From NCBI GenBank assembly GCA_026988315.1, contig JALSLJ010000008.1, positions 2,419-66,418 on the forward strand: a DNA stretch of 64,000 nt, read 5' to 3'. Within the stretch, counting starts at the first letter, position 1; every line of letters begins with the position of its first letter. The stretch comes from Sulfurimonas sp. Lineage in GTDB: Bacteria > Campylobacterota > Campylobacteria > Campylobacterales > Sulfurimonadaceae. Both the position numbers and the translations under genes were made by a program. The notes under the pieces were generated by a model. It was not told the DNA's origin. It made no database searches and saw only the letters and a program-made list of their open reading frames with translations. Below, piece after piece: positions 43,588 through 53,169 of this stretch.

Positions 43588-43730
43588 TAATTTGAGAACG
43601 ATGCTCATAAGTGCCACTCTATATCACGCTAAACAATCAATTTATTTTGTAACTATTATGTCTTCAAATTAATACCTTATCGTATCTTTAGCTATGTAAA
43701 CTTCCGTGTTAAAAATTTAAGGAGAAATAA

Positions 43731-45482
43731 ATGAAGAAATATATTTTACTATCAATAGCAACTGCTGCTGCATTAACATTTGCAGGATGCTCAGATGATA
43801 ATAATGACAATGACGGTGCTGCATTGGCATCAACAATCTCTTTTTCTGAGGTTAAAGTTCCAGAAACTGACGCTGAAAAAAGATCGATTTTAGCTTCAGA
43901 CACAGTAACTATCAATGGGGTTGATCATTCTATTAGCTACAACACTATTATTAGAAGTGGTGATATTTTAAATGGCAACACCTATGGTCTTATCTATGAT
44001 AAAAATGGAAGTCCTGTTATAGAAACTGATGGTTCACAAATGGTAAGTGTGTCAAGTGACTTTGCATCTTTATTGCCAATTGGAAATAAATTGTTTATGG
44101 TTTCTCATTTTGAAACTCGCCCTGCAGCTATGTATATTACTGAGCTAGACCAAGATGAAGCAACTGGCAAACTAACTGCTCTTAACACTAAAAATATTGA
44201 TTTTAGTGCTTTTAATGGTCTTTGGGTTCCTTGTGCTGGTTCAGTAACACCATGGAATACACACTTAGGTAGTGAGGAATACCCTCCAAATGCAGCTGCA
44301 ATTGATGAAAATGGATATATTGATAGTTATTATGAGCCTATGGCTAATTATGTTGGTGGTGATTTAACTGCTCTTAATCCTTATGACTATGGTTGGGTAC
44401 CAGAGATAGAAGTTCTTGATGAAAATGGAAATGTAAAAGTTCAAAAACACTATACAATGGGTAGATTTGCACATGAATTATCTTATGTAATGCCAGATAA
44501 AAAAACAGTATATCAATCAGACGATGGCACAAATGGCGTATTTTACAAGTTTGTAGCAGATACAGCAGGAGATTTATCAGCTGGAACACTTTACGCTGCT
44601 AAATGGAATCAGACATCTAGTGTAGGTGGCGGAACTGCTAACATCACTTGGGTTGATTTAGGTCATGCTACAAATGAAGAGATTAAAGCAGCACTTGATG
44701 CTAAGTATAAATTTGGGGATATTTTTACAGTAGCAGATAGAAATACTGATAACACTTGTCCAACAGGTTTTATACCATCTAACTGGGCTTATAAAAACGA
44801 ATGTTTAAAAATCAATGATGGAATGGAGAAAATTGCTTCGAGATTAGAAAGTGGAAGATATGCTGGTATGATGGGTGCTACAACTGAGTTTTCTAAGATG
44901 GAAGGTATCACTTACAACCCTCAAAACCATGAGATGTATATGGCTATGAGTCGTACTGAAAAAGGGATGGAAGATTACAAATACGATAATCAAACAGAAG
45001 ATAAATATGATAAAGGTGGTCCAAACCATATCAGACTTCAAGAGAGAAATCATTGTGGTGTTGTATATAAAATGGCACTTGATGGATACAATATAACCAC
45101 TATGGAGTCTTTGGTGGAGGGTGAAGGTATGGAAGCAGATGCTTCTGGAAATACATGTAGGCTTGATAAAATATCAATGCCTGATAATGTAACATTTATT
45201 CCAAATACAGATACGCTTATCATAGGGGAAGATACATCTTACCACCAAAATGATATGATTTGGGCATACAACCTTACAAGTAAAAATTTAACTCGTATCC
45301 AAACTACACCATATGGAAGCGAAACTACTTCACCGTACTATTATCCAAATATTAATGGATTTGGTTATCTTACAAGTGTTGTACAGCATCCTTTTGGAGA
45401 GAGTGATCAAGATCAACTCACAAATCCTGATGAAGCAAAAGCTTATACTGGATATATAGGACCATTCCCTGTTATCAAGTAA
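43731..45482 (+). CDS. phoX: PhoX-family (DUF839) alkaline phosphatase, lipoprotein
   Basis: SHFE, CAGSVTPWNTHLGSEE, GRFAHE, SDDG, KMEG, PDN, IGED, ETTS, VQHP; lipobox FAGC; RBS AAGGAG. Confidence 0.88.
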   Translation: MKKYILLSIATAAALTFAGCSDDNNDNDGAALASTISFSEVKVPETDAEKRSILASDTVTINGVDHSISYNTIIRSGDILNGNTYGLIYDKNGSPVIETDGSQMVSVSSDFASLLPIGNKLFMVSHFETRPAAMYITELDQDEATGKLTALNTKNIDFSAFNGLWVPCAGSVTPWNTHLGSEEYPPNAAAIDENGYIDSYYEPMANYVGGDLTALNPYDYGWVPEIEVLDENGNVKVQKHYTMGRFAHELSYVMPDKKTVYQSDDGTNGVFYKFVADTAGDLSAGTLYAAKWNQTSSVGGGTANITWVDLGHATNEEIKAALDAKYKFGDIFTVADRNTDNTCPTGFIPSNWAYKNECLKINDGMEKIASRLESGRYAGMMGATTEFSKMEGITYNPQNHEMYMAMSRTEKGMEDYKYDNQTEDKYDKGGPNHIRLQERNHCGVVYKMALDGYNITTMESLVEGEGMEADASGNTCRLDKISMPDNVTFIPNTDTLIIGEDTSYHQNDMIWAYNLTSKNLTRIQTTPYGSETTSPYYYPNINGFGYLTSVVQHPFGESDQDQLTNPDEAKAYTGYIGPFPVIK

Positions 45483-45498: not shown

Positions 45499-47166
45499 AT
45501 GAAAACTTTTATGTTTTTAGCTTTGCCACTTTTATTGTTACTAGTCTCATGTTCAAATGAGACTAGTGACGAAAGTGCGATTATAGATATAAAAAATCGC
45601 TCCCTTGTAAACTCAGCTGCAAATATTCCAAGCCAATGCTATACAAAAACAGAAGATGAAAACGGCAAAGTATATAACCCCTGTTTCAACTGTCATATCT
45701 CCTCGGTAGAACCAAACTTTATAGATGATGTAAATTTACAAGAAGAGTATGCTTTTAAAGAGTATGCTAGAAAAAATCATTGGACAAACCTTTTTAAAGA
45801 TAGAACGAAAGATGTCTTAAAAATAAGTGATGAGGAGATATTAGAGTATATTCGGGAGAGTAACTACTTTGGAAGTAAAAATGAATTTCTATTGGCCGAG
45901 AAACTCAAAAATTTACCTGATGAATGGGATATAGATGGTGATTCCAAATGGGATGGATATATCCCTGATTGCTACTATAACTTTGACAATGAAGGGTTTG
46001 ATAGAGGAGAGTCTGGCGAATATACAGGGTGGAGAGCCTTTGGCTATTACCCTTTTTTAGGAACCTTTTGGCCTACAAATGGCTCAACTGATGATGTACT
46101 CATAAGGCTTCCGATAGACTTTAGGATAGATGTAAATGGTGTTTTTGATTTAGAAGTATATAAAATAAACCTTTTAATAGTTGAGACACTTATAAAACAA
46201 AAAAGCATTAAAACTTTTGAGATAGATGAAATGAAATATGGGGTTGATTTAGACAAAGATGGTAATTTCTCAATTGCTAATCAAATCACATTTGATTACG
46301 ATCCAAGAAATGGGATAGATATGTATTATGTAGGAATGGCAAACAAAAAGGAACACAAGATAGCTGCTGGACTCTATCCAAAAGGAACAGAATTCCTTCA
46401 TGCTGTTTATTATATAGATATAGACGATAACAACTCCATAAAAATGGCTTCAAGAATGAAAGAGTTAAGATATGCAAAAAAAGTTAGCTGGGCAACTTAT
46501 ACCAATCATAAAACATTATGGCTAGATGAGCTAAAAGAAGCAGATGTATTTCCTGATAGACTAGAAGTTTTTATTGGTGATGCTGAAAGAGGAATAAGCA
46601 ATAAAAGGGGCTGGAGATATCAGGGATTTATTGAAGATGAACATGGGGAGCTAAGACCTCAAAGTTATGAAGAAAATCTTTTATGTATTGGATGTCATGC
46701 AAATATTGGAGCCATAGCTGATTCAACTTTCGTTTATCAAAGAAAATTTGAACACGATACATTTCAAAACGGATGGTACCATTGGAGTCAAAAAGACTTA
46801 CAAGGAACAAAAGAACCAACAACTCCTGATGGAAGAAATGAATATTCACTATATTTAAAAGAAAATGGTGCTGGAGATGAGTTTAGAGAAAATGATGAAG
46901 TGATAGAAAAGTTTTTTAATGAAGATGGTTCACTAAAAGATATAGAGCTTCAAAAGCTCAACCAAGATATAACACATCTTATATTTCCAACACAACAAAG
47001 AGCTTTAAATCTAAATAAGGCATATAAAATTATCGTAAATGAACAAAGTTTTGTATATGGAAGAGATGCAACAATAAGACCTGTTAAAAATGTCCATAAA
47101 AAGCTAGATTTTGAGCAAAGTACGAAGATTGACAATCCTATAGAATACAGCAACAGTAAAATATAA
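45499..47166 (+). CDS. Uncharacterised di-heme c-type cytochrome lipoprotein
   Basis: Lipobox LVSC; CFNCH (45682-45696) and CIGCH (46684-46698); two DxDxD(G) motifs. Confidence 0.8.
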   Translation: MKTFMFLALPLLLLLVSCSNETSDESAIIDIKNRSLVNSAANIPSQCYTKTEDENGKVYNPCFNCHISSVEPNFIDDVNLQEEYAFKEYARKNHWTNLFKDRTKDVLKISDEEILEYIRESNYFGSKNEFLLAEKLKNLPDEWDIDGDSKWDGYIPDCYYNFDNEGFDRGESGEYTGWRAFGYYPFLGTFWPTNGSTDDVLIRLPIDFRIDVNGVFDLEVYKINLLIVETLIKQKSIKTFEIDEMKYGVDLDKDGNFSIANQITFDYDPRNGIDMYYVGMANKKEHKIAAGLYPKGTEFLHAVYYIDIDDNNSIKMASRMKELRYAKKVSWATYTNHKTLWLDELKEADVFPDRLEVFIGDAERGISNKRGWRYQGFIEDEHGELRPQSYEENLLCIGCHANIGAIADSTFVYQRKFEHDTFQNGWYHWSQKDLQGTKEPTTPDGRNEYSLYLKENGAGDEFRENDEVIEKFFNEDGSLKDIELQKLNQDITHLIFPTQQRALNLNKAYKIIVNEQSFVYGRDATIRPVKNVHKKLDFEQSTKIDNPIEYSNSKI

Positions 47167-47181
47167 ATAGAGGAGTACATT

Positions 47182-48642
47182 ATGAAAAAGATACTATTTG
47201 CAACTTATATGGCTGTCATATTTATTGGTTGCAGTTCAGATGTTACTACAGAAAATAATCTCGATGATAATAATGATACAAATAATACTAATTTCACTGT
47301 CCAGCCTACAAAAGAAGCCAATAACCCTATAGATATACAAAATGGCGAAAAGCTATTTGTAGCGAACTGTGCAACTTGTCATGGGGGAGATGCTAAAGGG
47401 AAAACTGGACCTAATATTGTAGGAATTACTAGCCAAAATATATCTGATGAAATATTAGGAAACTCTGCTATGGTTTTTATGCAAGGTTTGTTTTCAGAGG
47501 AAGACTATAGAGTGATGGCAGTTTTTTTAGATGAATTAGAAAGAAAAGATGGTGGAGTAGATGAATTTTCACAAGAGAGGGCTATCCTCGGAGAAAAACT
47601 TTATTTCGATAAAAACTTATCTTCAACAAGATCTATATCCTGTGCTACTTGCCATAACCCTTTGCAGGCCTTTATTGACAATAGGTTTGACTCTAATCCT
47701 GTTTATGGAGCACTCTCAGTTGGTGATGACAATACAACACTAGGTGGAAGAAATTCTCCAACTGTAGCGTACGCAAAATTTATACCAGATTTTTTAAAAA
47801 TTGATGAAGACACATACATTGGTGGGCAATTTTGGGATGGAAGAGCAAATAATTTAAAAGAGCAGGCAAAGGGACCATTTTTAGATGCTGCAGAGATGAT
47901 GATGCCCAATGAGTCTGCTGTTGTGTCGAGAGTTAAGGAAAACCGAGATTATATTGAAGAATTTCAAAATTTATATGGAGATGATATCTTCAATAACGAT
48001 GAAAAAGCATATGATGCCATTGCGGAAGTTATAGCAGAATATGAAAAAATACCTGAAATTTCTCCGTTTAATTCTAAGTATGATAGAAGTAAATTACCTT
48101 ATTATCATATAGACCATTATGAGATGACTGATCAAGAAAAGTACGGTTATCTTTTATTTTTTTCAGATGAAACACACTGTAAATCATGCCACACTACAAG
48201 TTCTGCTACAGAATCATCGATAGAAACTTTTACAAATTCGCACTATGAAAATATTGGTATCCCAAAAAATATTGAAGCTTTACTAGCAAGAGACGGCAAT
48301 ACAGACAAGATAGATTTAGGTTTAGGGGAAGATATAAACGAAAGTAAGCACTATGGAAAATTTAAAGTTCCTACTCTTAGAAATGTCGCGGTTACTGCAC
48401 CTTATATGAGTAATGGAGTTTTCAAAGAGCTAAAAACAGTTATAAAGTATTTTGACTATATGGCAGGAAATGGGCATCCTATAAATCCTGAGACAAACCA
48501 GCCATGGAGAGAAGCAGAGGTAAATAGTACAATCAATCATGAAACATTAAAAACTCTAAAGCCATTAACTGATGAAAAAATAGATGCACTAGAGAGCTTT
48601 TTAAAATTGTTGACCGATAAAGAGTATGAAGGGTTGCTATAA
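47182..48642 (+). CDS. bCcP/MauG-superfamily enzyme with extra N-terminal cytochrome c domain (three CXXCH), lipoprotein
   Basis: Lipobox FIGC; CATCH, CATCH, CKSCH; RNSPTV, GGQFWDGRA, SKYD, FKVPTLRNVAVTAPYM, INPET..W..AEV, LTD..YE.LL. Confidence 0.92.
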   Translation: MKKILFATYMAVIFIGCSSDVTTENNLDDNNDTNNTNFTVQPTKEANNPIDIQNGEKLFVANCATCHGGDAKGKTGPNIVGITSQNISDEILGNSAMVFMQGLFSEEDYRVMAVFLDELERKDGGVDEFSQERAILGEKLYFDKNLSSTRSISCATCHNPLQAFIDNRFDSNPVYGALSVGDDNTTLGGRNSPTVAYAKFIPDFLKIDEDTYIGGQFWDGRANNLKEQAKGPFLDAAEMMMPNESAVVSRVKENRDYIEEFQNLYGDDIFNNDEKAYDAIAEVIAEYEKIPEISPFNSKYDRSKLPYYHIDHYEMTDQEKYGYLLFFSDETHCKSCHTTSSATESSIETFTNSHYENIGIPKNIEALLARDGNTDKIDLGLGEDINESKHYGKFKVPTLRNVAVTAPYMSNGVFKELKTVIKYFDYMAGNGHPINPETNQPWREAEVNSTINHETLKTLKPLTDEKIDALESFLKLLTDKEYEGLL

Positions 48643-49825: not shown

Positions 49826-50560
49826 TTATTTAGACACTCTGTTATACACTGAAGCATTCATATCAAAATCTACTGAAATAGTATAATCTCCATCATATTG
49901 AGTTGAAACAAGCAAGTTGTTTATACTCCCTATAAGATGCGTTATATTTCCATCTTTTTCTACGCTAGTAACCTCAACATCATAACTTGTAAAGTGAGTC
50001 AGTTCTACACCACCACTCTTATAGTATAAAAAATCGCTACTATATGTTCCTGTTGTTGGATTATCTTTGGAAAAATTATCTATTGTAAAATGTAAAAGTT
50101 TTGTTTGATCAGAACTCCAAATAATATTCTCAAATGCTTGAACATCTATACTATCATCATCAATAAGTGTATAAGGGAGAAATTCATTGAGATAGTTTGT
50201 ATCTGTAGTTTTTGTCATGGATACAAAAGACTCTGTTACGACAGAACCAGAAGATTCTACACTCACATTAAAATCACCTGTTTTATTATAAATGTATTGA
50301 GCATATGTTTCTAATCCAACATTAAATGTATCAGTAACAGTATCTCCATCATTAGTAGTAACTCTCCCATCAACAACATCACCATCTACGACATCATCAA
50401 GCAAATCTGTTGGATCACTGTTATCATCAACAGAGCTATCTGATACCTGCTCTTGATCAGCAGTTGTATTATTAGTATCTTCATTCGTTGTATCTTCACT
50501 ACATCCACTTATAAAAAGCATCAACATTAAACTCACAATTAGGTTTAACACAGTTTTCAT
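49826..50560 (-). CDS. Hypothetical acidic lipoprotein
   Basis: Start MKTVLN at 50560 with AAGGAAG RBS; lipobox ISGC; Asp/Thr/Asn-rich linker; beta-rich C-terminus. Confidence 0.75.
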   Translation of the reverse strand: MKTVLNLIVSLMLMLFISGCSEDTTNEDTNNTTADQEQVSDSSVDDNSDPTDLLDDVVDGDVVDGRVTTNDGDTVTDTFNVGLETYAQYIYNKTGDFNVSVESSGSVVTESFVSMTKTTDTNYLNEFLPYTLIDDDSIDVQAFENIIWSSDQTKLLHFTIDNFSKDNPTTGTYSSDFLYYKSGGVELTHFTSYDVEVTSVEKDGNITHLIGSINNLLVSTQYDGDYTISVDFDMNASVYNRVSK

Positions 50561-50635
50561 TTTGACTTCCTTGTATATCATTTCATACAAGTATAAAATA
50601 TAATCATTGCTTTTTCATTGCAAAATAATAATTTT

Positions 50636-51319
50636 CTAAATATTTAATCTATATCCAAATGAGTGAATAGTTTCTAAAAACTTGTGATTTAGTTTTGAAC
50701 GAAGTCTGCTAACAAGTGCTCGTCTCGTGTTTTCATTAGTGTTTTTATCTGGCCATATTTCATATTCTATTGTATCGATGGAGACAACTCCATTCTTTGT
50801 GTTTACTAGTAGTTTCAAGAGTTGTTTTTCACGCTTTGTTAAGTGTATAGATACCCCGCTATGTATCAATTCACATGAATCACTCACATAAGAAAATTCA
50901 CTATCAAACATAACATCTCCTATCATCTCATCTCTTAATTCGTCATTTTTTCTTCTTGAACTTCTTGTTGCTATCTGTATGGCGACAAGAAGTTCTTTAC
51001 GATTAAAAGGCTTGATAAGATAAGCGGTAGGATCTGTCTCAATAGCGCGTTGTAGAGTCTCATCATCACTAAATGCACTTATATAAATCACAGGAATTTC
51101 CTTCACTTTTTTAATTTCACTTGCACAGGTGATTCCATCCATATCACCTTTTATATAAACATCCATCAAGATCAAATCAATATCTTCATTTTTTACTACT
51201 TCCAATGCACTCGTAGCATCTGAGACAATTTTAACAACCCTATCACCTAGTCCACTGATAAAGGTTTTAATCTCTAAAGCAACTAAACTTTCATCTTCAA
51301 CTATCAATATATTTTTCAT
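50636..51319 (-). CDS. Response regulator with OmpR-type winged-helix output
   Basis: IVEDE, LMDV, IKPF; LTKREKQLL...VSRLRSKL...GYR. Confidence 0.92.
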   Translation of the reverse strand: MKNILIVEDESLVALEIKTFISGLGDRVVKIVSDATSALEVVKNEDIDLILMDVYIKGDMDGITCASEIKKVKEIPVIYISAFSDDETLQRAIETDPTAYLIKPFNRKELLVAIQIATRSSRRKNDELRDEMIGDVMFDSEFSYVSDSCELIHSGVSIHLTKREKQLLKLLVNTKNGVVSIDTIEYEIWPDKNTNENTRRALVSRLRSKLNHKFLETIHSFGYRLNI

Positions 51320-53169
51320 AATGTAAACTCTATTTTATAATCTAATCCACTACCATTTGCAATGCCAAGAGTGCCTTCTAATTGCAACTCTACTAAGGTT
51401 TTAACCAATGTAAGCCCTAAAGTATTTTTATCAAGGGATGCTTCATCAAAACCTTGCCCATTATCGCCAATGTTGAGTAAATATATATTAGCATTTTTTA
51501 CTAAACTTATCTTGATTATATTTTTATCTTTGTGTTTATTGTGCTTAATCGAGTTAGTAACTAATTCATTTACAATAAGCCCTATATAACTAGCTTCTCT
51601 TAGTGGAATATGGATATCTGCTATCTTTATATCTATTGTAAAATTTCTGCTATTTCCAAATCCTACCTCCATATCTTCACAAAGTTCGTTTATATACTCA
51701 TTCATATCAATGTACTCTAAATTATCTTTTATATATAAAAGCTCATGTGTTCTTGATATCGCTCTTATGCGTCCATCGAGCTCTTCAAACTTCTCTTTAA
51801 TCTTTTCTTGTTTGCAATTATTCGCTTGTATCCTTATGATTGATAGAATAAGTTGCAAGTTGTTTTTAATTCTGTGATGCAACTCTTTTAATAAAACTTT
51901 TTTACTCTCCAAAGCGTTATAAAGATCTTTTGTTTGGATATCTATCTCTCTTTGAATTAGAACTTGCCTTTGTTCTAGCTCATGAACGAGAGCAGCATCC
52001 ATCCTATCTTTTTCTTTACTGAGTAAGATATATCTATCTGTAAATGCTAAAGATAAAACTAAGGCTTCCAGTGCTGTTGAATACATAATAAGATTAGGAA
52101 AGTCCTGCATAACAGAGATAAGACCAAGTCCATCTAAAATCATCAGGATAAAACCCACAACTAAAACACTCCATCCAGCAATGAAAAAACGCGCCTGTTT
52201 ATAGCCATCGAGATATATACGAACTCCAGCATAAATGTTAAATATTACAAATAAAAGACCAGTTAAGATTCCAACCTCTGGATAGTAAAAGAGTTGTGTA
52301 CCAAAAATAGGTATCTCAATAATAGCTATGATAATGATGTATTTATAAAACTTATCGATACTTGGATAGTTTGCTGTATTTAAAAAACTTCGGGCAAAAA
52401 GTGCTGCCATAATATACATCGTATTTACTTTTAAAAGGACAATGAGGTTATCTATATAGATAAAATCTGCAGAGAAAAAAAGTGGTGAGATTCCCAAGTA
52501 TGTAATTTGTTGAAAAACAAGAGCACCTAAATAAAGACCATAAAAGAGATACGATTTATCTTTTGTGTAGAGATAAAGCAAAAGATTATATAAAAATAAG
52601 GCAATAATAATTCCTATAAAAATCATTATCAAAGTTTGTTGCATGTGGTCTTCATGTAAAAAGAGCTCTTTGTCTTTCAAGAATAGTCCAAATCTAAGTG
52701 CGGTTGTCTCATTCTTTACCTGTAAATAGTAAATTTTTTTGCTTTTAGCATCTAGGTGTATTTCAAAAAAAGGCTGGATATTATGCTGTAGTTTGGAAAC
52801 ATGAAGCATCCCCCTAGTCTCTTTTTTATTATCACAATATAAAACTACCTCTTCTAAAAGCGGGTTATACACCACAAGTATTTTTGATATTTTTTCATCT
52901 GTAGTATTTTCAAGTACAAATTTAACCCAAACAACCTCATCTTTTACAAAACCTAAATTTATATGCTCTGTATCATTTTTTAAAAAGTCTGCATGTTCTT
53001 TTATTTCTAAAAATTTCAAATTTGCTTTATCTATATAAATTTCACTATTTTGTAAAATGCTTTGATTTGTTTGAGCTATATTTATACTATTTGCGTACAA
53101 TAGATTGGAAAATATAAAAATAATACTGAAGTACCTAAAGAGTATGCAATAATGTTTCAAAGAGTTCAC
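51316..53169 (-). CDS. 7TM-DISM sensor histidine kinase (HisKA_2 type)
   Basis: DISMED2-like WVKF periplasmic domain, seven TMs, ELHHRIKNNLQ H-box, DNGQG, LGL. Confidence 0.92.
   Translation of the reverse strand: MNSLKHYCILFRYFSIIFIFSNLLYANSINIAQTNQSILQNSEIYIDKANLKFLEIKEHADFLKNDTEHINLGFVKDEVVWVKFVLENTTDEKISKILVVYNPLLEEVVLYCDNKKETRGMLHVSKLQHNIQPFFEIHLDAKSKKIYYLQVKNETTALRFGLFLKDKELFLHEDHMQQTLIMIFIGIIIALFLYNLLLYLYTKDKSYLFYGLYLGALVFQQITYLGISPLFFSADFIYIDNLIVLLKVNTMYIMAALFARSFLNTANYPSIDKFYKYIIIIAIIEIPIFGTQLFYYPEVGILTGLLFVIFNIYAGVRIYLDGYKQARFFIAGWSVLVVGFILMILDGLGLISVMQDFPNLIMYSTALEALVLSLAFTDRYILLSKEKDRMDAALVHELEQRQVLIQREIDIQTKDLYNALESKKVLLKELHHRIKNNLQLILSIIRIQANNCKQEKIKEKFEELDGRIRAISRTHELLYIKDNLEYIDMNEYINELCEDMEVGFGNSRNFTIDIKIADIHIPLREASYIGLIVNELVTNSIKHNKHKDKNIIKISLVKNANIYLLNIGDNGQGFDEASLDKNTLGLTLVKTLVELQLEGTLGIANGSGLDYKIEFTL

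What the first reader, a model, noticed from the sequence alone, without database searches (positions are those of the whole stretch)
47182..48642. MauG-like enzyme with an extra N-terminal heme and altered key residues
Seen: CXXCH at C63, C154 and C333. The two C-terminal hemes lie in a domain whose motifs (GGQFWDGRA, FKVPTLRNVAVTAPYMSNGVF, INPETNQPWREAEV, LTDKEYEGLL) track Paracoccus MauG as I recall it, more than canonical CcpA. The inter-heme Trp (MauG W93) is kept. The surface Trp just before the second CXXCH (MauG W199, W-N-C-R-L-C-H) is absent here (ETHCKSCH). At the distal-ligand position (MauG FYNKY, Y294) the protein reads YFDYM, so the ligand could be Tyr or Met. Known: the tri-heme peroxidase YhjA also has an added N-terminal heme, but it is a CcpA-type enzyme. 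Inference: a distinct subfamily with a different substrate and a built-in electron donor.
Basis: partly seen in the sequence, partly recalled or inferred. Interest (0 to 1): 0.7.

Follow-up and report, generated by a model that had tools for sequence, protein, structure and literature searches.

The report
Three-haem MauG-like partner of PhoX phosphatase
This gene encodes a lipid-anchored three-haem enzyme, a small cytochrome c fused to a MauG-type two-haem oxidant, that almost always sits behind a phosphate-scavenging PhoX phosphatase and an unstudied two-haem cytochrome, so it probably serves that iron-dependent phosphatase and not peroxide detoxification or methylamine metabolism.

Summary
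ORF 47182-48642 encodes a 486-aa lipoprotein with three CXXCH motifs (C63, C154, C333). Residues 134-486 match Paracoccus MauG far better than any peroxidase: phmmer E 2.6e-80, model TM 0.93, 41-42% identity. CcpA matches at about 1e-20 and YhjA at TM 0.55. W93 is kept (W218) and W199 is absent. The Y294 column holds Phe (F424), flanked by invariant Y423 and Y426.

New here:
- The three-haem form is one clade (SH-aLRT 99) nested among two-haem MauG-like lipoproteins.
- 13 of 14 three-haem loci lie next to a phoX-like / PF27085 (Aq_1262) two-haem gene pair. None of 105 two-haem relatives does (p about 2e-16).
- The operon carries a Pho-box-like repeat, also found upstream of pstS in the same genome.
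- The window's own subclade has a five-residue signature around the third haem: W218, H332, Y423, F424, Y426.

It is not a true MauG: there is no mau context and it scores below the TIGR03791 cut-off. It is not CcpA/YhjA-type either. The likeliest role is a peroxide-driven oxidant wired to the Sec-exported, Fe(III)-dependent PhoX module. This is inferred, not shown. Published hints exist for Flavobacterium PhoX/MauG-like and for BthA/phosphatase. I rate it a new variant of a known kind.

The parts
43648..43661 (+). Pho-box-like direct repeat TGTAAC-N5-TGT, 70 nt upstream of the phoX-like start codon
   Evidence: locates it. One site alone is at chance level (1.8 expected per 64 kb). The same TGTAAY-N5-TGT lies upstream of 17 of 70 related phoX-like genes, against 0.011 expected per upstream region. 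The full repeat lies 40-50 nt upstream of pstS, a porin gene and a divergent SBP/ABC pair in this genome.
43731..45482 (+). phoX-like lipoprotein (583 aa, lipobox FAGC20, no twin-arginine motif); the only PhoX-family gene in the genome
   Evidence: Pfam PhoX PF05787 E 2.5e-29. A profile against P. fluorescens PhoX (3ZWU) gives E 1.8e-14, with C168 aligned to the Fe-ligand Cys179 and the EE, DD and QHP motifs kept. It is the single PF05787 hit in the genome.
45499..47166 (+). PF27085 (Aq_1262) two-haem lipoprotein (555 aa; CFNCH at C62, CIGCH at C396)
   Evidence: precomputed PF27085. Both CXXCH motifs are invariant in 36 sequences. The AlphaFold model has pLDDT 88.6 and no significant PDB fold match; the best weak matches are cytochrome P460 and c'-beta.
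47182..48642 (+). Three-haem MauG-like lipoprotein (486 aa), the finding itself
47323..47550 (+). N-terminal class I cytochrome c domain (residues about 48-123); haem 1 bound by C63/C66/H67, with invariant Met97 as probable sixth ligand
   Evidence: Pfam Cytochrome_CBB3 and Cytochrom_C cover residues 52-116. CXXCH and Met97 are invariant in 43 three-haem sequences.
47641..47655 (+). Haem 2 CXXCH (C154-H158), equivalent to the MauG C31-H35 peroxide-binding five-coordinate haem
   Evidence: Alignment. The distal-pocket residues Q103, P107 and E113 and the Ca-site residues N66, T275 and P277 are invariant in all 120 relatives.
47833..47835 (+). W218, equivalent to the MauG inter-haem W93; Trp only in this subclade and a few others, His in most relatives
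48175..48192 (+). H332 plus the haem 3 CXXCH (C333-H337), equivalent to MauG N200 and C201-H205; the W199 position just before it lacks Trp
48448..48462 (+). Y423-F424-D425-Y426-M427, the distal-ligand segment of haem 3 (MauG F293-Y297); F424 sits at the Y294 column
   Evidence: It lies at the C-terminal end of predicted helix 417-427.

Best explanation
The gene encodes a periplasm-facing lipoprotein. A His/Met class I cytochrome c domain (haem 1) is fused to a MauG-type two-haem domain (haems 2 and 3).

It is the last gene of a phosphate-starvation operon: phoX-like, PF27085 two-haem cytochrome, then this three-haem protein.

Proposed mechanism:
1. H2O2 (or another oxidant) reacts at five-coordinate haem 2 (H158, with distal Q228, P232 and E238).
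2. Oxidising equivalents are shared with haem 3 through W218.
3. Electrons are drawn in through the fused haem 1 from the neighbouring PF27085 cytochrome and/or directly from the PhoX metal site.
4. The net effect is a peroxide-driven oxidant. It makes or keeps the two irons of a Sec-exported PhoX in the Fe(III) state that its Fe2-oxo-Ca3 cofactor needs, in a microoxic, sulfidic vent habitat.

The fused haem would take the place of the surface Trp199 that MauG uses as a hole-hopping relay.

Shown: architecture, MauG-type fold and pocket residues, clade structure, gene linkage, Pho-box-like site, and the Sec/lipoprotein export signals of the PhoX partners.

Inferred: the direction of electron flow, the oxidant, the high-valent chemistry, and the claim that the PhoX iron is the final target.
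For: - MauG-type domain: phmmer E 2.6e-80 against about 1e-20 for CcpA; model TM 0.93 and 41% identity to 3L4M, BthA 0.68, YhjA 0.55.
- Peroxide-pocket and Ca-site residues are invariant.
- Haem 1 has an invariant CXXCH and Met97.
- Tight operon: gaps of 16 and 15 nt, and no terminator predicted between the three genes.
- Linkage: the three-haem gene is next to Aq_1262 and/or PhoX in the window and in L001, L002, L004, L014, L015, L017, L081, L095, L121, L122, L123, L125 and L126. It stands alone only in L120.
- None of 105 two-haem relatives is so placed. Fisher p = 1.8e-16.
- PhoX-like and PF27085 are adjacent in nearly all of 80 GTDB loci.
- The PhoX partners lack Tat motifs (72 of 73) and 56 of 73 have a lipobox. 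Classical PhoX enzymes are Tat substrates.
- P0121 keeps the Fe-ligand Cys.
- The Pho-box-like repeat is shared with pstS. In L002 the cassette follows pstCAB-phoU directly.
- Literature: all Flavobacterium phoX genes share an operon with a MauG-like gene, both are strongly induced by phosphate depletion, and PhoX alone was inactive in a heterologous host (PMC8812569, PMC8115612). bthA always lies downstream of a putative purple-acid phosphatase gene (PMC6405878).
Against: - Most PhoX/PF27085 pairs do without it. Only 4 of about 65 GTDB loci with room carry the three-haem gene. 13 of 22 Campylobacteria genomes with PF27085 have no MauG-like clade member at E <= 1e-60. It therefore cannot be an obligate maturase.
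- One three-haem gene (L120) has no PhoX within 6 kb.
- There is no biochemical or expression data for this clade. The only runs found are DNA.
- The Y294 ligand column is Phe here, so MauG-like bis-Fe(IV) chemistry may not apply.
- A fused electron-donating haem would quench a high-valent state, which fits plain peroxidase turnover as well.
- The Pho-box call rests on motif position and recurrence, not on binding data.
Confidence: 0.5

Rival explanations
1. It is an ordinary periplasmic hydrogen-peroxide reductase. The fused cytochrome c is simply a built-in entry point for respiratory-chain electrons, a functional analogue of three-haem YhjA. It is co-expressed with PhoX only to protect the peroxide- and sulfide-sensitive Fe/Cys cofactor or the cell surface.
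For: - The peroxide pocket is intact.
- His/Met haem 1 is a typical electron-transfer domain.
- BthA, also MauG-like, turns over H2O2 catalytically (PMC6405878).
- The gene is dispensable for most PhoX/PF27085 pairs.
Against: - The genome already has five canonical CCP genes.
- The strict linkage of the three-haem form to PF27085/PhoX (13 of 14 against 0 of 105) is hard to explain by general detoxification.
- The domain is MauG-type, not CcpA/YhjA-type.
Confidence: 0.22
2. It is a true MauG-style protein-modifying enzyme. It installs a covalent modification in a neighbouring protein, either in PhoX or in the P460-like haem domain of PF27085, for example a cross-link or a hydroxylated or oxidised residue.
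For: - It has the closest structural and sequence kinship to MauG of any solved protein.
- MbnH and MauG both modify the product of an adjacent gene (family knowledge).
- PF27085 shows weak cytochrome P460 / c'-beta similarity. P460 cofactors carry a peroxide-dependent cross-link (my recollection of the literature; not checked here).
- Lidbury et al. propose a cofactor-generating role for the Flavobacterium homologue.
Against: - Most PF27085 and PhoX partners occur without this enzyme, so no essential modification can depend on it.
- W199, the relay residue needed for MauG's remote catalysis, is absent.
- The Tyr ligand column is Phe.
- A fused electron-donor haem is not expected in a maturase.
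Confidence: 0.15
3. The three proteins form a periplasmic redox enzyme system and not a hydrolase with helpers. The PhoX-like metal site oxidises a reduced phosphorus compound such as phosphite, or another substrate, and the five haems carry the electrons away.
For: - There are five haems for one 'hydrolase'.
- Control appears to be of the Pho type.
- The PhoX-like protein is very distant from characterised PhoX (single-sequence E 0.006).
- PF27085 is sometimes fused to cytochrome-d1-type propellers.
Against: - There is no direct evidence.
- The PhoX metal-ligand motifs are conserved, which fits hydrolysis.
- The terminal MauG-type domain is built to consume peroxide, not to feed a respiratory chain.
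Confidence: 0.05

Closest known systems
MauG of Paracoccus denitrificans (TTQ biosynthesis enzyme; PDB 3L4M)
   Same: - Two-haem c domain: 41-42% identity, model TM 0.93.
- His-ligated peroxide haem with Gln, Pro and Glu in the distal pocket, and the Ca-site residues.
- Inter-haem Trp (W218).
- C-terminal helices.
   Different: - An extra N-terminal His/Met cytochrome c domain and a lipid anchor.
- No W199.
- Phe at the Y294 column.
- No mau operon or MADH.
- Far below the TIGR03791 cut-off.
- Sits in a phoX operon.
Flavobacterium johnsoniae Fjoh_2477, the MauG-like gene of the phoX operon (Lidbury et al. 2020, 2022)
   Same: - A MauG-like haem protein co-operonic with a lipoprotein PhoX and tied to phosphate starvation.
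- Its function is unproven.
   Different: [quoted passage not shown] No PF27085 partner and no fused cytochrome c is reported.
- I could not fetch its sequence, so its kinship to this clade is untested.
- Two-haem relatives with 39% identity or more to P0001 are never next to PhoX, which points to an independent association.
BthA of Burkholderia thailandensis (PDB 6NX0)
   Same: - A MauG-like two-haem enzyme always encoded beside a putative iron phosphatase gene.
- It forms bis-Fe(IV) and also turns over H2O2.
   Different: - 26% identity, TM 0.68.
- Ser replaces the inter-haem Trp.
- It has a Tyr ligand.
- Its partner is a purple-acid-type phosphatase, not PhoX.
- It has no fused cytochrome c.
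YhjA of Escherichia coli (three-haem peroxidase; PDB 9QDT)
   Same: Three c-haems, with an extra N-terminal haem domain ahead of a CCP_MauG two-haem unit.
   Different: - YhjA falls with the canonical bCCPs.
- 21% identity, TM 0.55, rmsd 10 A.
- By family knowledge, YhjA is anchored in the membrane and is fed by quinol.
- Here the extra domain is a class I cytochrome c on a lipoprotein, and the catalytic unit is MauG-type. The architectures are convergent.
MbnH (PDB 6E1C; TIGR04039)
   Same: - Best-scoring NCBIfam model (E 2.4e-42).
- A MauG-like enzyme that acts on the product of the neighbouring gene.
   Different: - 145 bits against a cut-off of 363.
- 24% identity, TM about 0.71.
- No MbnP neighbour.

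Membership tests
MauG (TTQ biosynthesis enzyme, TIGR03791) | Scores above the curated equivalog cut-off | tested here: not met
   83.9 bits against a cut-off of 443.85
MauG (TTQ biosynthesis enzyme, TIGR03791) | Two-haem CCP_MauG fold with a His-ligated five-coordinate haem and the Gln103/Pro107/Glu113 pocket | tested here: met
   Model TM 0.93 to 3L4M. H158, Q228, P232 and E238 are aligned and invariant. This is at sequence and model level only; haem coordination was not observed.
MauG (TTQ biosynthesis enzyme, TIGR03791) | Tyr294 as axial ligand of the six-coordinate haem | tested here: not met
   F424 occupies the column. Tyr is at -1 and +2. Whether either Tyr ligates cannot be told from sequence.
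MauG (TTQ biosynthesis enzyme, TIGR03791) | Trp93 between the haems | tested here: met
   W218
MauG (TTQ biosynthesis enzyme, TIGR03791) | Surface Trp199 relay to the substrate protein | tested here: not met
   Thr at the aligned position, within a 2-residue insertion; no Trp nearby
MauG (TTQ biosynthesis enzyme, TIGR03791) | Encoded in a mau cluster with methylamine dehydrogenase subunits | tested here: not met
   The neighbours are phoX-like, PF27085 and rodA. PF02975 gives no hit in the genome, but the control genomes were also silent, so the whole-genome negative is weak.
Canonical bacterial di-haem cytochrome c peroxidase (CcpA type) | His/Met electron-transfer haem, with the Met at the column of MauG Y294 | tested here: not met
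   Phe is at that column. The nearby M427 is Arg in two subclade members.
Canonical bacterial di-haem cytochrome c peroxidase (CcpA type) | Groups with characterised CCPs by sequence and structure | tested here: not met
   E 1e-22 to 1e-13 against 2.6e-80 for MauG. The genome's five CCPs form the outgroup. TM 0.6-0.78 at 22-28% identity.
YhjA-type three-haem peroxidase | An N-terminal extra haem domain joined to a CcpA-type unit, homologous along the whole length | tested here: not met
   Three haems are present, but Foldseek to 9QDT gives TM 0.55, rmsd 10 A and 21% identity. YhjA lies in the canonical cluster.
MbnH family (TIGR04039) | Scores above the curated cut-off, with an MbnP partner gene | tested here: not met
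   145.2 bits against a cut-off of 362.85. No MbnP-like neighbour.
Three-haem, PhoX/PF27085-linked MauG-like clade (defined here) | An N-terminal His/Met cytochrome c fused to a MauG-like domain, a lipobox, and a gene next to PF27085 and/or phoX | tested here: met

The most novel reading that the evidence does not exclude
The three-haem protein and PF27085 together would be a dedicated extracytoplasmic 'metallo-activase'. It would use peroxide and a chain of five haems, with a fused haem replacing MauG's tryptophan relay, to oxidise Fe(II) in a Sec-exported apo-PhoX and build or repair its Fe(III)2-oxo-Ca3 cofactor outside the cytoplasm. This would be a Tat-independent route to an active iron phosphatase. 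It would also give a physiological job to the wider class of MauG-like enzymes that sit beside iron phosphatases (BthA, Fjoh_2477). In the window's subclade, the remodelled third haem (W218, H332, Y423, F424, Y426) would carry a non-canonical axial ligation tuned for this task.
Probability: 0.25. Interest if true: 0.8.

Novelty: new variant of a known kind. Interest (0 to 1): 0.6.

Why it matters
PhoX is one of the most abundant phosphate-scavenging enzymes in the ocean, and its iron requirement links the phosphorus and iron cycles.

Two papers noted that MauG-like haem enzymes sit beside extracytoplasmic iron phosphatases: PhoX in Flavobacterium and a purple-acid phosphatase beside BthA in Burkholderia. 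Neither explained why, and the function of BthA is still open.

This clade adds a third version that is genetically cleaner:
- The haem enzyme has gained its own cytochrome c.
- It is found essentially only beside PhoX and a second, uncharacterised two-haem cytochrome.
- The operon appears to be under phosphate control.

That makes the question 'what do MauG-like enzymes do for iron phosphatases?' directly testable with three small secreted proteins.

For haem chemists, the subclade offers a natural variant. The Tyr ligand column is Phe while the inter-haem Trp is regained, which tests what is needed for bis-Fe(IV) formation.

Tried and rejected
- True MauG: rejected. It scores below the TIGR03791 cut-off, has no mau context, lacks W199 and has no Tyr at the 294 column.
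- CcpA/YhjA type: rejected by sequence, tree and fold.
- MbnH: below the cut-off and no MbnP neighbour.
- Met427 as the obligatory sixth ligand: unlikely, because it is Arg in P0008 and L017.
- A one-residue register shift that would put Y423 at the Y294 position: considered. The distance to the downstream INPET anchor is the same as in relatives. The ungapped alignment keeps the conserved (H/Y)-M-(A/S)-G block, so the swap reading is preferred. This is unresolved without coordinates, which the tools do not return.
- PhoX-MauG fusion proteins as 'Rosetta stone' evidence: none among ten long representatives. Those were fusions to FA_hydroxylase, GSDH and subtilase.
- PDB sequence and fold searches for PF27085: no significant match.
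- RNA-seq support for the operon: only DNA runs hold the sequence.
- Literature on Aq_1262 / PF27085: none in the held library.
- The C-terminal extensions of long PF27085 forms are propellers, not copies of the fused cytochrome c.
Full report
**1. The observation**

ORF 47182-48642 (+) is open and encodes 486 residues. It has a GAGGAG ribosome-binding site 7 nt upstream and a lipoprotein signal peptide ending in FIGC17. It has three CXXCH motifs, at C63, C154 and C333.

Pfam finds a small cytochrome c domain (residues 52-116) followed by CCP_MauG. Against all PDB sequences, residues 134-486 match Paracoccus denitrificans MauG at E 2.6e-80. BthA follows at 1e-35, canonical di-haem peroxidases at 1e-22 to 1e-13, and MbnH at 2e-18.

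An AlphaFold model (mean pLDDT 83.7) superposes on MauG 3L4M at TM 0.93, rmsd 1.9 A and 41-42% identity. The corresponding values are TM 0.68 for BthA, 0.55 for the three-haem YhjA, and 0.6-0.78 for CcpA-type enzymes.

The printed chain index equals standard MauG numbering: C31, C34 and H35 fall at the known haem site. On that numbering:
- H35 = H158.
- W93 = W218.
- Q103, P107 and E113 = Q228, P232 and E238.
- H205 = H337.
- W199 has no counterpart. The segment reads FFSDETHCKSCH, with a two-residue insertion and no Trp.
- F293-Y294-N295-K296-Y297 = Y423-F424-D425-Y426-M427.

**2. What kind of protein it is**

Among the 120 best 90%-identity clusters in the large protein collection, 43 have the third, N-terminal CXXCH. 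Nearly all start with a lipobox.

A maximum-likelihood tree of the two-haem domain puts all three-haem sequences in one clade (44 rows, SH-aLRT 99). This clade is nested among two-haem MauG-like lipoproteins. Paracoccus MauG is sister to the whole group, and the five ordinary CCP paralogues of this genome form the outgroup. The fusion with cytochrome c therefore arose once.

At 50% identity the three-haem clade collapses to three or four representatives among 1.84 billion proteins. It occurs in 2 of 401 sampled Campylobacteria genomes. It is real but uncommon.

The fused domain has an invariant CXXCH and an invariant Met (M97), the pattern of a His/Met class I electron-transfer cytochrome.

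The peroxide-pocket residues (Q, P, E) and the Ca-site residues (N66, T275, P277 equivalents) are invariant in all 120 relatives.

**3. The altered residues**

The Y294 column is Tyr in 106 of 110 relatives and His in three. It is Phe in all members of the window's own subclade: 10 clusters plus L001, L014, L015, L017 and L081, with 100% support.

A systematic scan for subclade-specific residues returns eight positions. Five of them surround the third haem and the inter-haem path:
- W218, where 101 of 110 others have His.
- H332, where others have Asn. This is the residue just before the haem 3 CXXCH.
- Y423, where others have Phe.
- F424, where others have Tyr.
- Y426, where others have His.

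M427 is Arg in two subclade members, which argues against obligatory His/Met ligation.

Y423 or Y426 (both invariant), or an open coordination site, are more likely than Met. The segment lies at the C-terminal end of predicted helix 417-427. The tools do not return coordinates, so distances to the iron could not be measured.

One nuance is that the 'kept' Trp93 is not a family trait. Most relatives have His there. A separate Arcobacteraceae two-haem group has the exact MauG pattern W...F-Y-N/D-K-Y.

**4. Context, the main new result**

The gene is the third of three co-directional lipoprotein genes separated by 16 and 15 nt, and no terminator is predicted between them.

The first gene (43731-45482) is a PhoX-family protein (Pfam E 2.5e-29).
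- A four-sequence profile aligns it to P. fluorescens PhoX at E 1.8e-14.
- C168 sits on Cys179, the thiolate Fe ligand of the PhoX Fe2-oxo-Ca3 cofactor (the ligand role is from my knowledge of Yong et al. 2014; the numbering was checked).
- The EE, DD and QHP motifs are kept.
- It is the only PhoX gene in the genome.

The second gene (45499-47166) belongs to PF27085 (Aq_1262).
- It has two invariant CXXCH motifs.
- Its confident model (pLDDT 88.6) has no significant structural neighbour. The best weak hits are cytochrome P460 and c'-beta.
- No paper in the held library mentions the family.

*Searching from PF27085.* There are 167 relatives in GTDB species genomes. They occur in Campylobacterota, Thiomicrorhabdus, Thiodiazotropha, Sedimenticola, Lamprocystis, Desulfocapsa, Leptospiraceae, Caldithrix, Rhodobium and Thioclava. 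A phoX-like gene is adjacent in almost every locus with room. PhoX/PF27085 is thus a widespread core pair. The three-haem gene follows it in only four of about 65 such loci.

*Searching from the three-haem side.* The gene lies next to PF27085 and/or PhoX in 13 of 14 loci. These are the window, L001, L002, L004, L014, L015, L017, L081, L095, L121, L122, L123, L125 and L126. L120 is the exception.

None of 105 two-haem relatives is so placed (Fisher p = 1.8e-16). Many of those sit in DHOR-imelysin-FA_hydroxylase clusters, and one is followed by a fur-family gene.

The fused cytochrome c is therefore diagnostic of the PhoX/PF27085-linked form.

**5. Regulation and export**

A direct repeat TGTAAY-N5-TGTAAY lies 40-50 nt upstream of pstS (PBP_like_2), of a neighbouring porin gene, and between a divergent binding-protein/ABC-ATPase pair in this genome.

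The shorter pattern TGTAAY-N5-TGT lies upstream of 17 of 70 related phoX-like genes, against 0.011 expected per region. It also lies at 43648-43661, 70 nt before the window's phoX-like start. That one site is at chance level on its own.

In L002 the cassette directly follows pstCAB-phoU. Phosphate-starvation control is thus likely, though it is inferred from motif position and not from binding data.

Of 73 PhoX partners of PF27085, 72 lack a twin-arginine motif and 56 have a lipobox. Classical PhoX enzymes are Tat substrates that leave the cytoplasm folded (literature, for example PMC4148689, listed). A Sec-exported PhoX must acquire its Fe(III) cofactor outside the cytoplasm. The organism comes from a hydrothermal-vent metagenome, where iron is mostly ferrous.

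**6. Literature**

Lidbury et al. report three things (PMC8115612; PMC8812569):
- In all Flavobacterium genomes the lipoprotein phoX shares an operon with a MauG-like gene (Fjoh_2477).
- Both genes are strongly induced by phosphate depletion.
- PhoX alone was inactive in Pseudomonas putida. The authors suggest the haem protein is needed for a cofactor.

Rizzolo et al. report that bthA, another MauG-like gene, always lies downstream of a putative purple-acid phosphatase gene, and they propose that BthA oxidises that partner (PMC6405878).

Neither idea has been tested. Neither paper describes a three-haem form or PF27085.

Earlier notes of this scan describe the same PhoX/PF27085 pairing, and PhoX with MauG-type partners, in other genomes. 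I used them only as leads. The pairing was re-derived here independently.

**7. Most likely mechanism**

- Shown: a MauG-type peroxide-reactive two-haem unit with a fused His/Met cytochrome c, encoded with and only with the PhoX/PF27085 module, under probable Pho control.
- Inferred: peroxide reacts at haem 2. Oxidising equivalents pass via W218 to haem 3. Electrons enter through haem 1 from PF27085 and/or the PhoX iron site. The system thereby makes or keeps the PhoX irons ferric. The fused haem would replace MauG's Trp199 relay.

Most PhoX/PF27085 pairs lack this gene, so it must be an accessory oxidant route and not an obligate maturase. I put about 0.5 on this reading.

The rivals are:
- A plain peroxidase co-expressed for protection (0.22).
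- A true covalent-modification enzyme (0.15).
- A redox enzyme system acting on reduced phosphorus or another substrate (0.05).

**8. Membership and novelty**

- It works like, and is folded like, MauG, but it fails four MauG criteria: the equivalog score, the Tyr294 column, Trp199 and the mau context.
- It fails the criteria for CcpA, YhjA and MbnH as well.
- It belongs to an uncharacterised, monophyletic three-haem branch of the bCCP/MauG superfamily.
- The general theme of a MauG-like enzyme beside an iron phosphatase has been noticed in the literature.
- Three things appear undescribed in the library searched: the fused-cytochrome architecture, its exclusive link to PhoX/PF27085, and the remodelled third-haem site.
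- Verdict: a new variant of a known kind, of moderate to high interest.

Noticed in passing
window 45499-47166; loci L014-L093: PF27085 (Aq_1262) is a two-haem protein family with no solved relative and no literature. It lies next to a phoX-like gene in nearly all of 80 loci from at least seven phyla or classes, mostly sulfur-cycling bacteria. Its second haem sits in a beta-sheet domain with weak cytochrome P460 / c'-beta resemblance.
   Followed up: partly
L076:6854-9808; L067:2480-5569: Long PF27085 forms carry C-terminal beta-propellers. One is a Cytochrom_D1-type domain (Pfam E 1e-68). Another is a PD40/TolB-like propeller with a third CXXCH.
   Followed up: partly
P0124, P0130, P0138, P0139; P0125, P0131; P0128: MauG-like domains of this family are fused in other proteins to FA_hydroxylase (a di-iron membrane enzyme family), to GSDH-type propellers and to a subtilase. 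Free-standing two-haem relatives usually follow DHOR-imelysin-FA_hydroxylase genes (26 of 78 metagenome loci).
   Followed up: partly
L122:1172-13626: One metagenome contig carries PhoX (993 aa), PF27085, the three-haem gene, PhoX and PF27085, then an AhpC-TSA/Redoxin gene on the other strand, then a third PhoX gene, all within 13 kb. Its three-haem protein has His at the Y294 column.
   Followed up: no
genome contigs C64:31106, C64:32410, C87:7956-8026; window 43648-43661: Candidate Pho box of this organism, TGTAAY-N5-TGTAAY. It lies 40-50 nt upstream of pstS, of a Porin_5 gene and of a divergent Tat-signal binding-protein / ABC-ATPase pair.
   Followed up: partly
relatives P0011-P0120 (alignment): About 90% of the closest MauG-like relatives have His rather than Trp at the inter-haem position (GGQFHDGRA). 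That residue is considered critical in both MauG and bCCPs.
   Followed up: no
genome contigs C10, C95, C64, C1, C14: This 2.19-Mb vent genome carries five further CCP_MauG genes (open frames of 310-363 aa) besides the three-haem one.
   Followed up: no
window 49826-53169 (- strand): Downstream, on the opposite strand, are a 254-aa protein with no family match, an OmpR-type response regulator and a 7TMR-DISM histidine kinase. Any link to the cassette was not examined.
   Followed up: no
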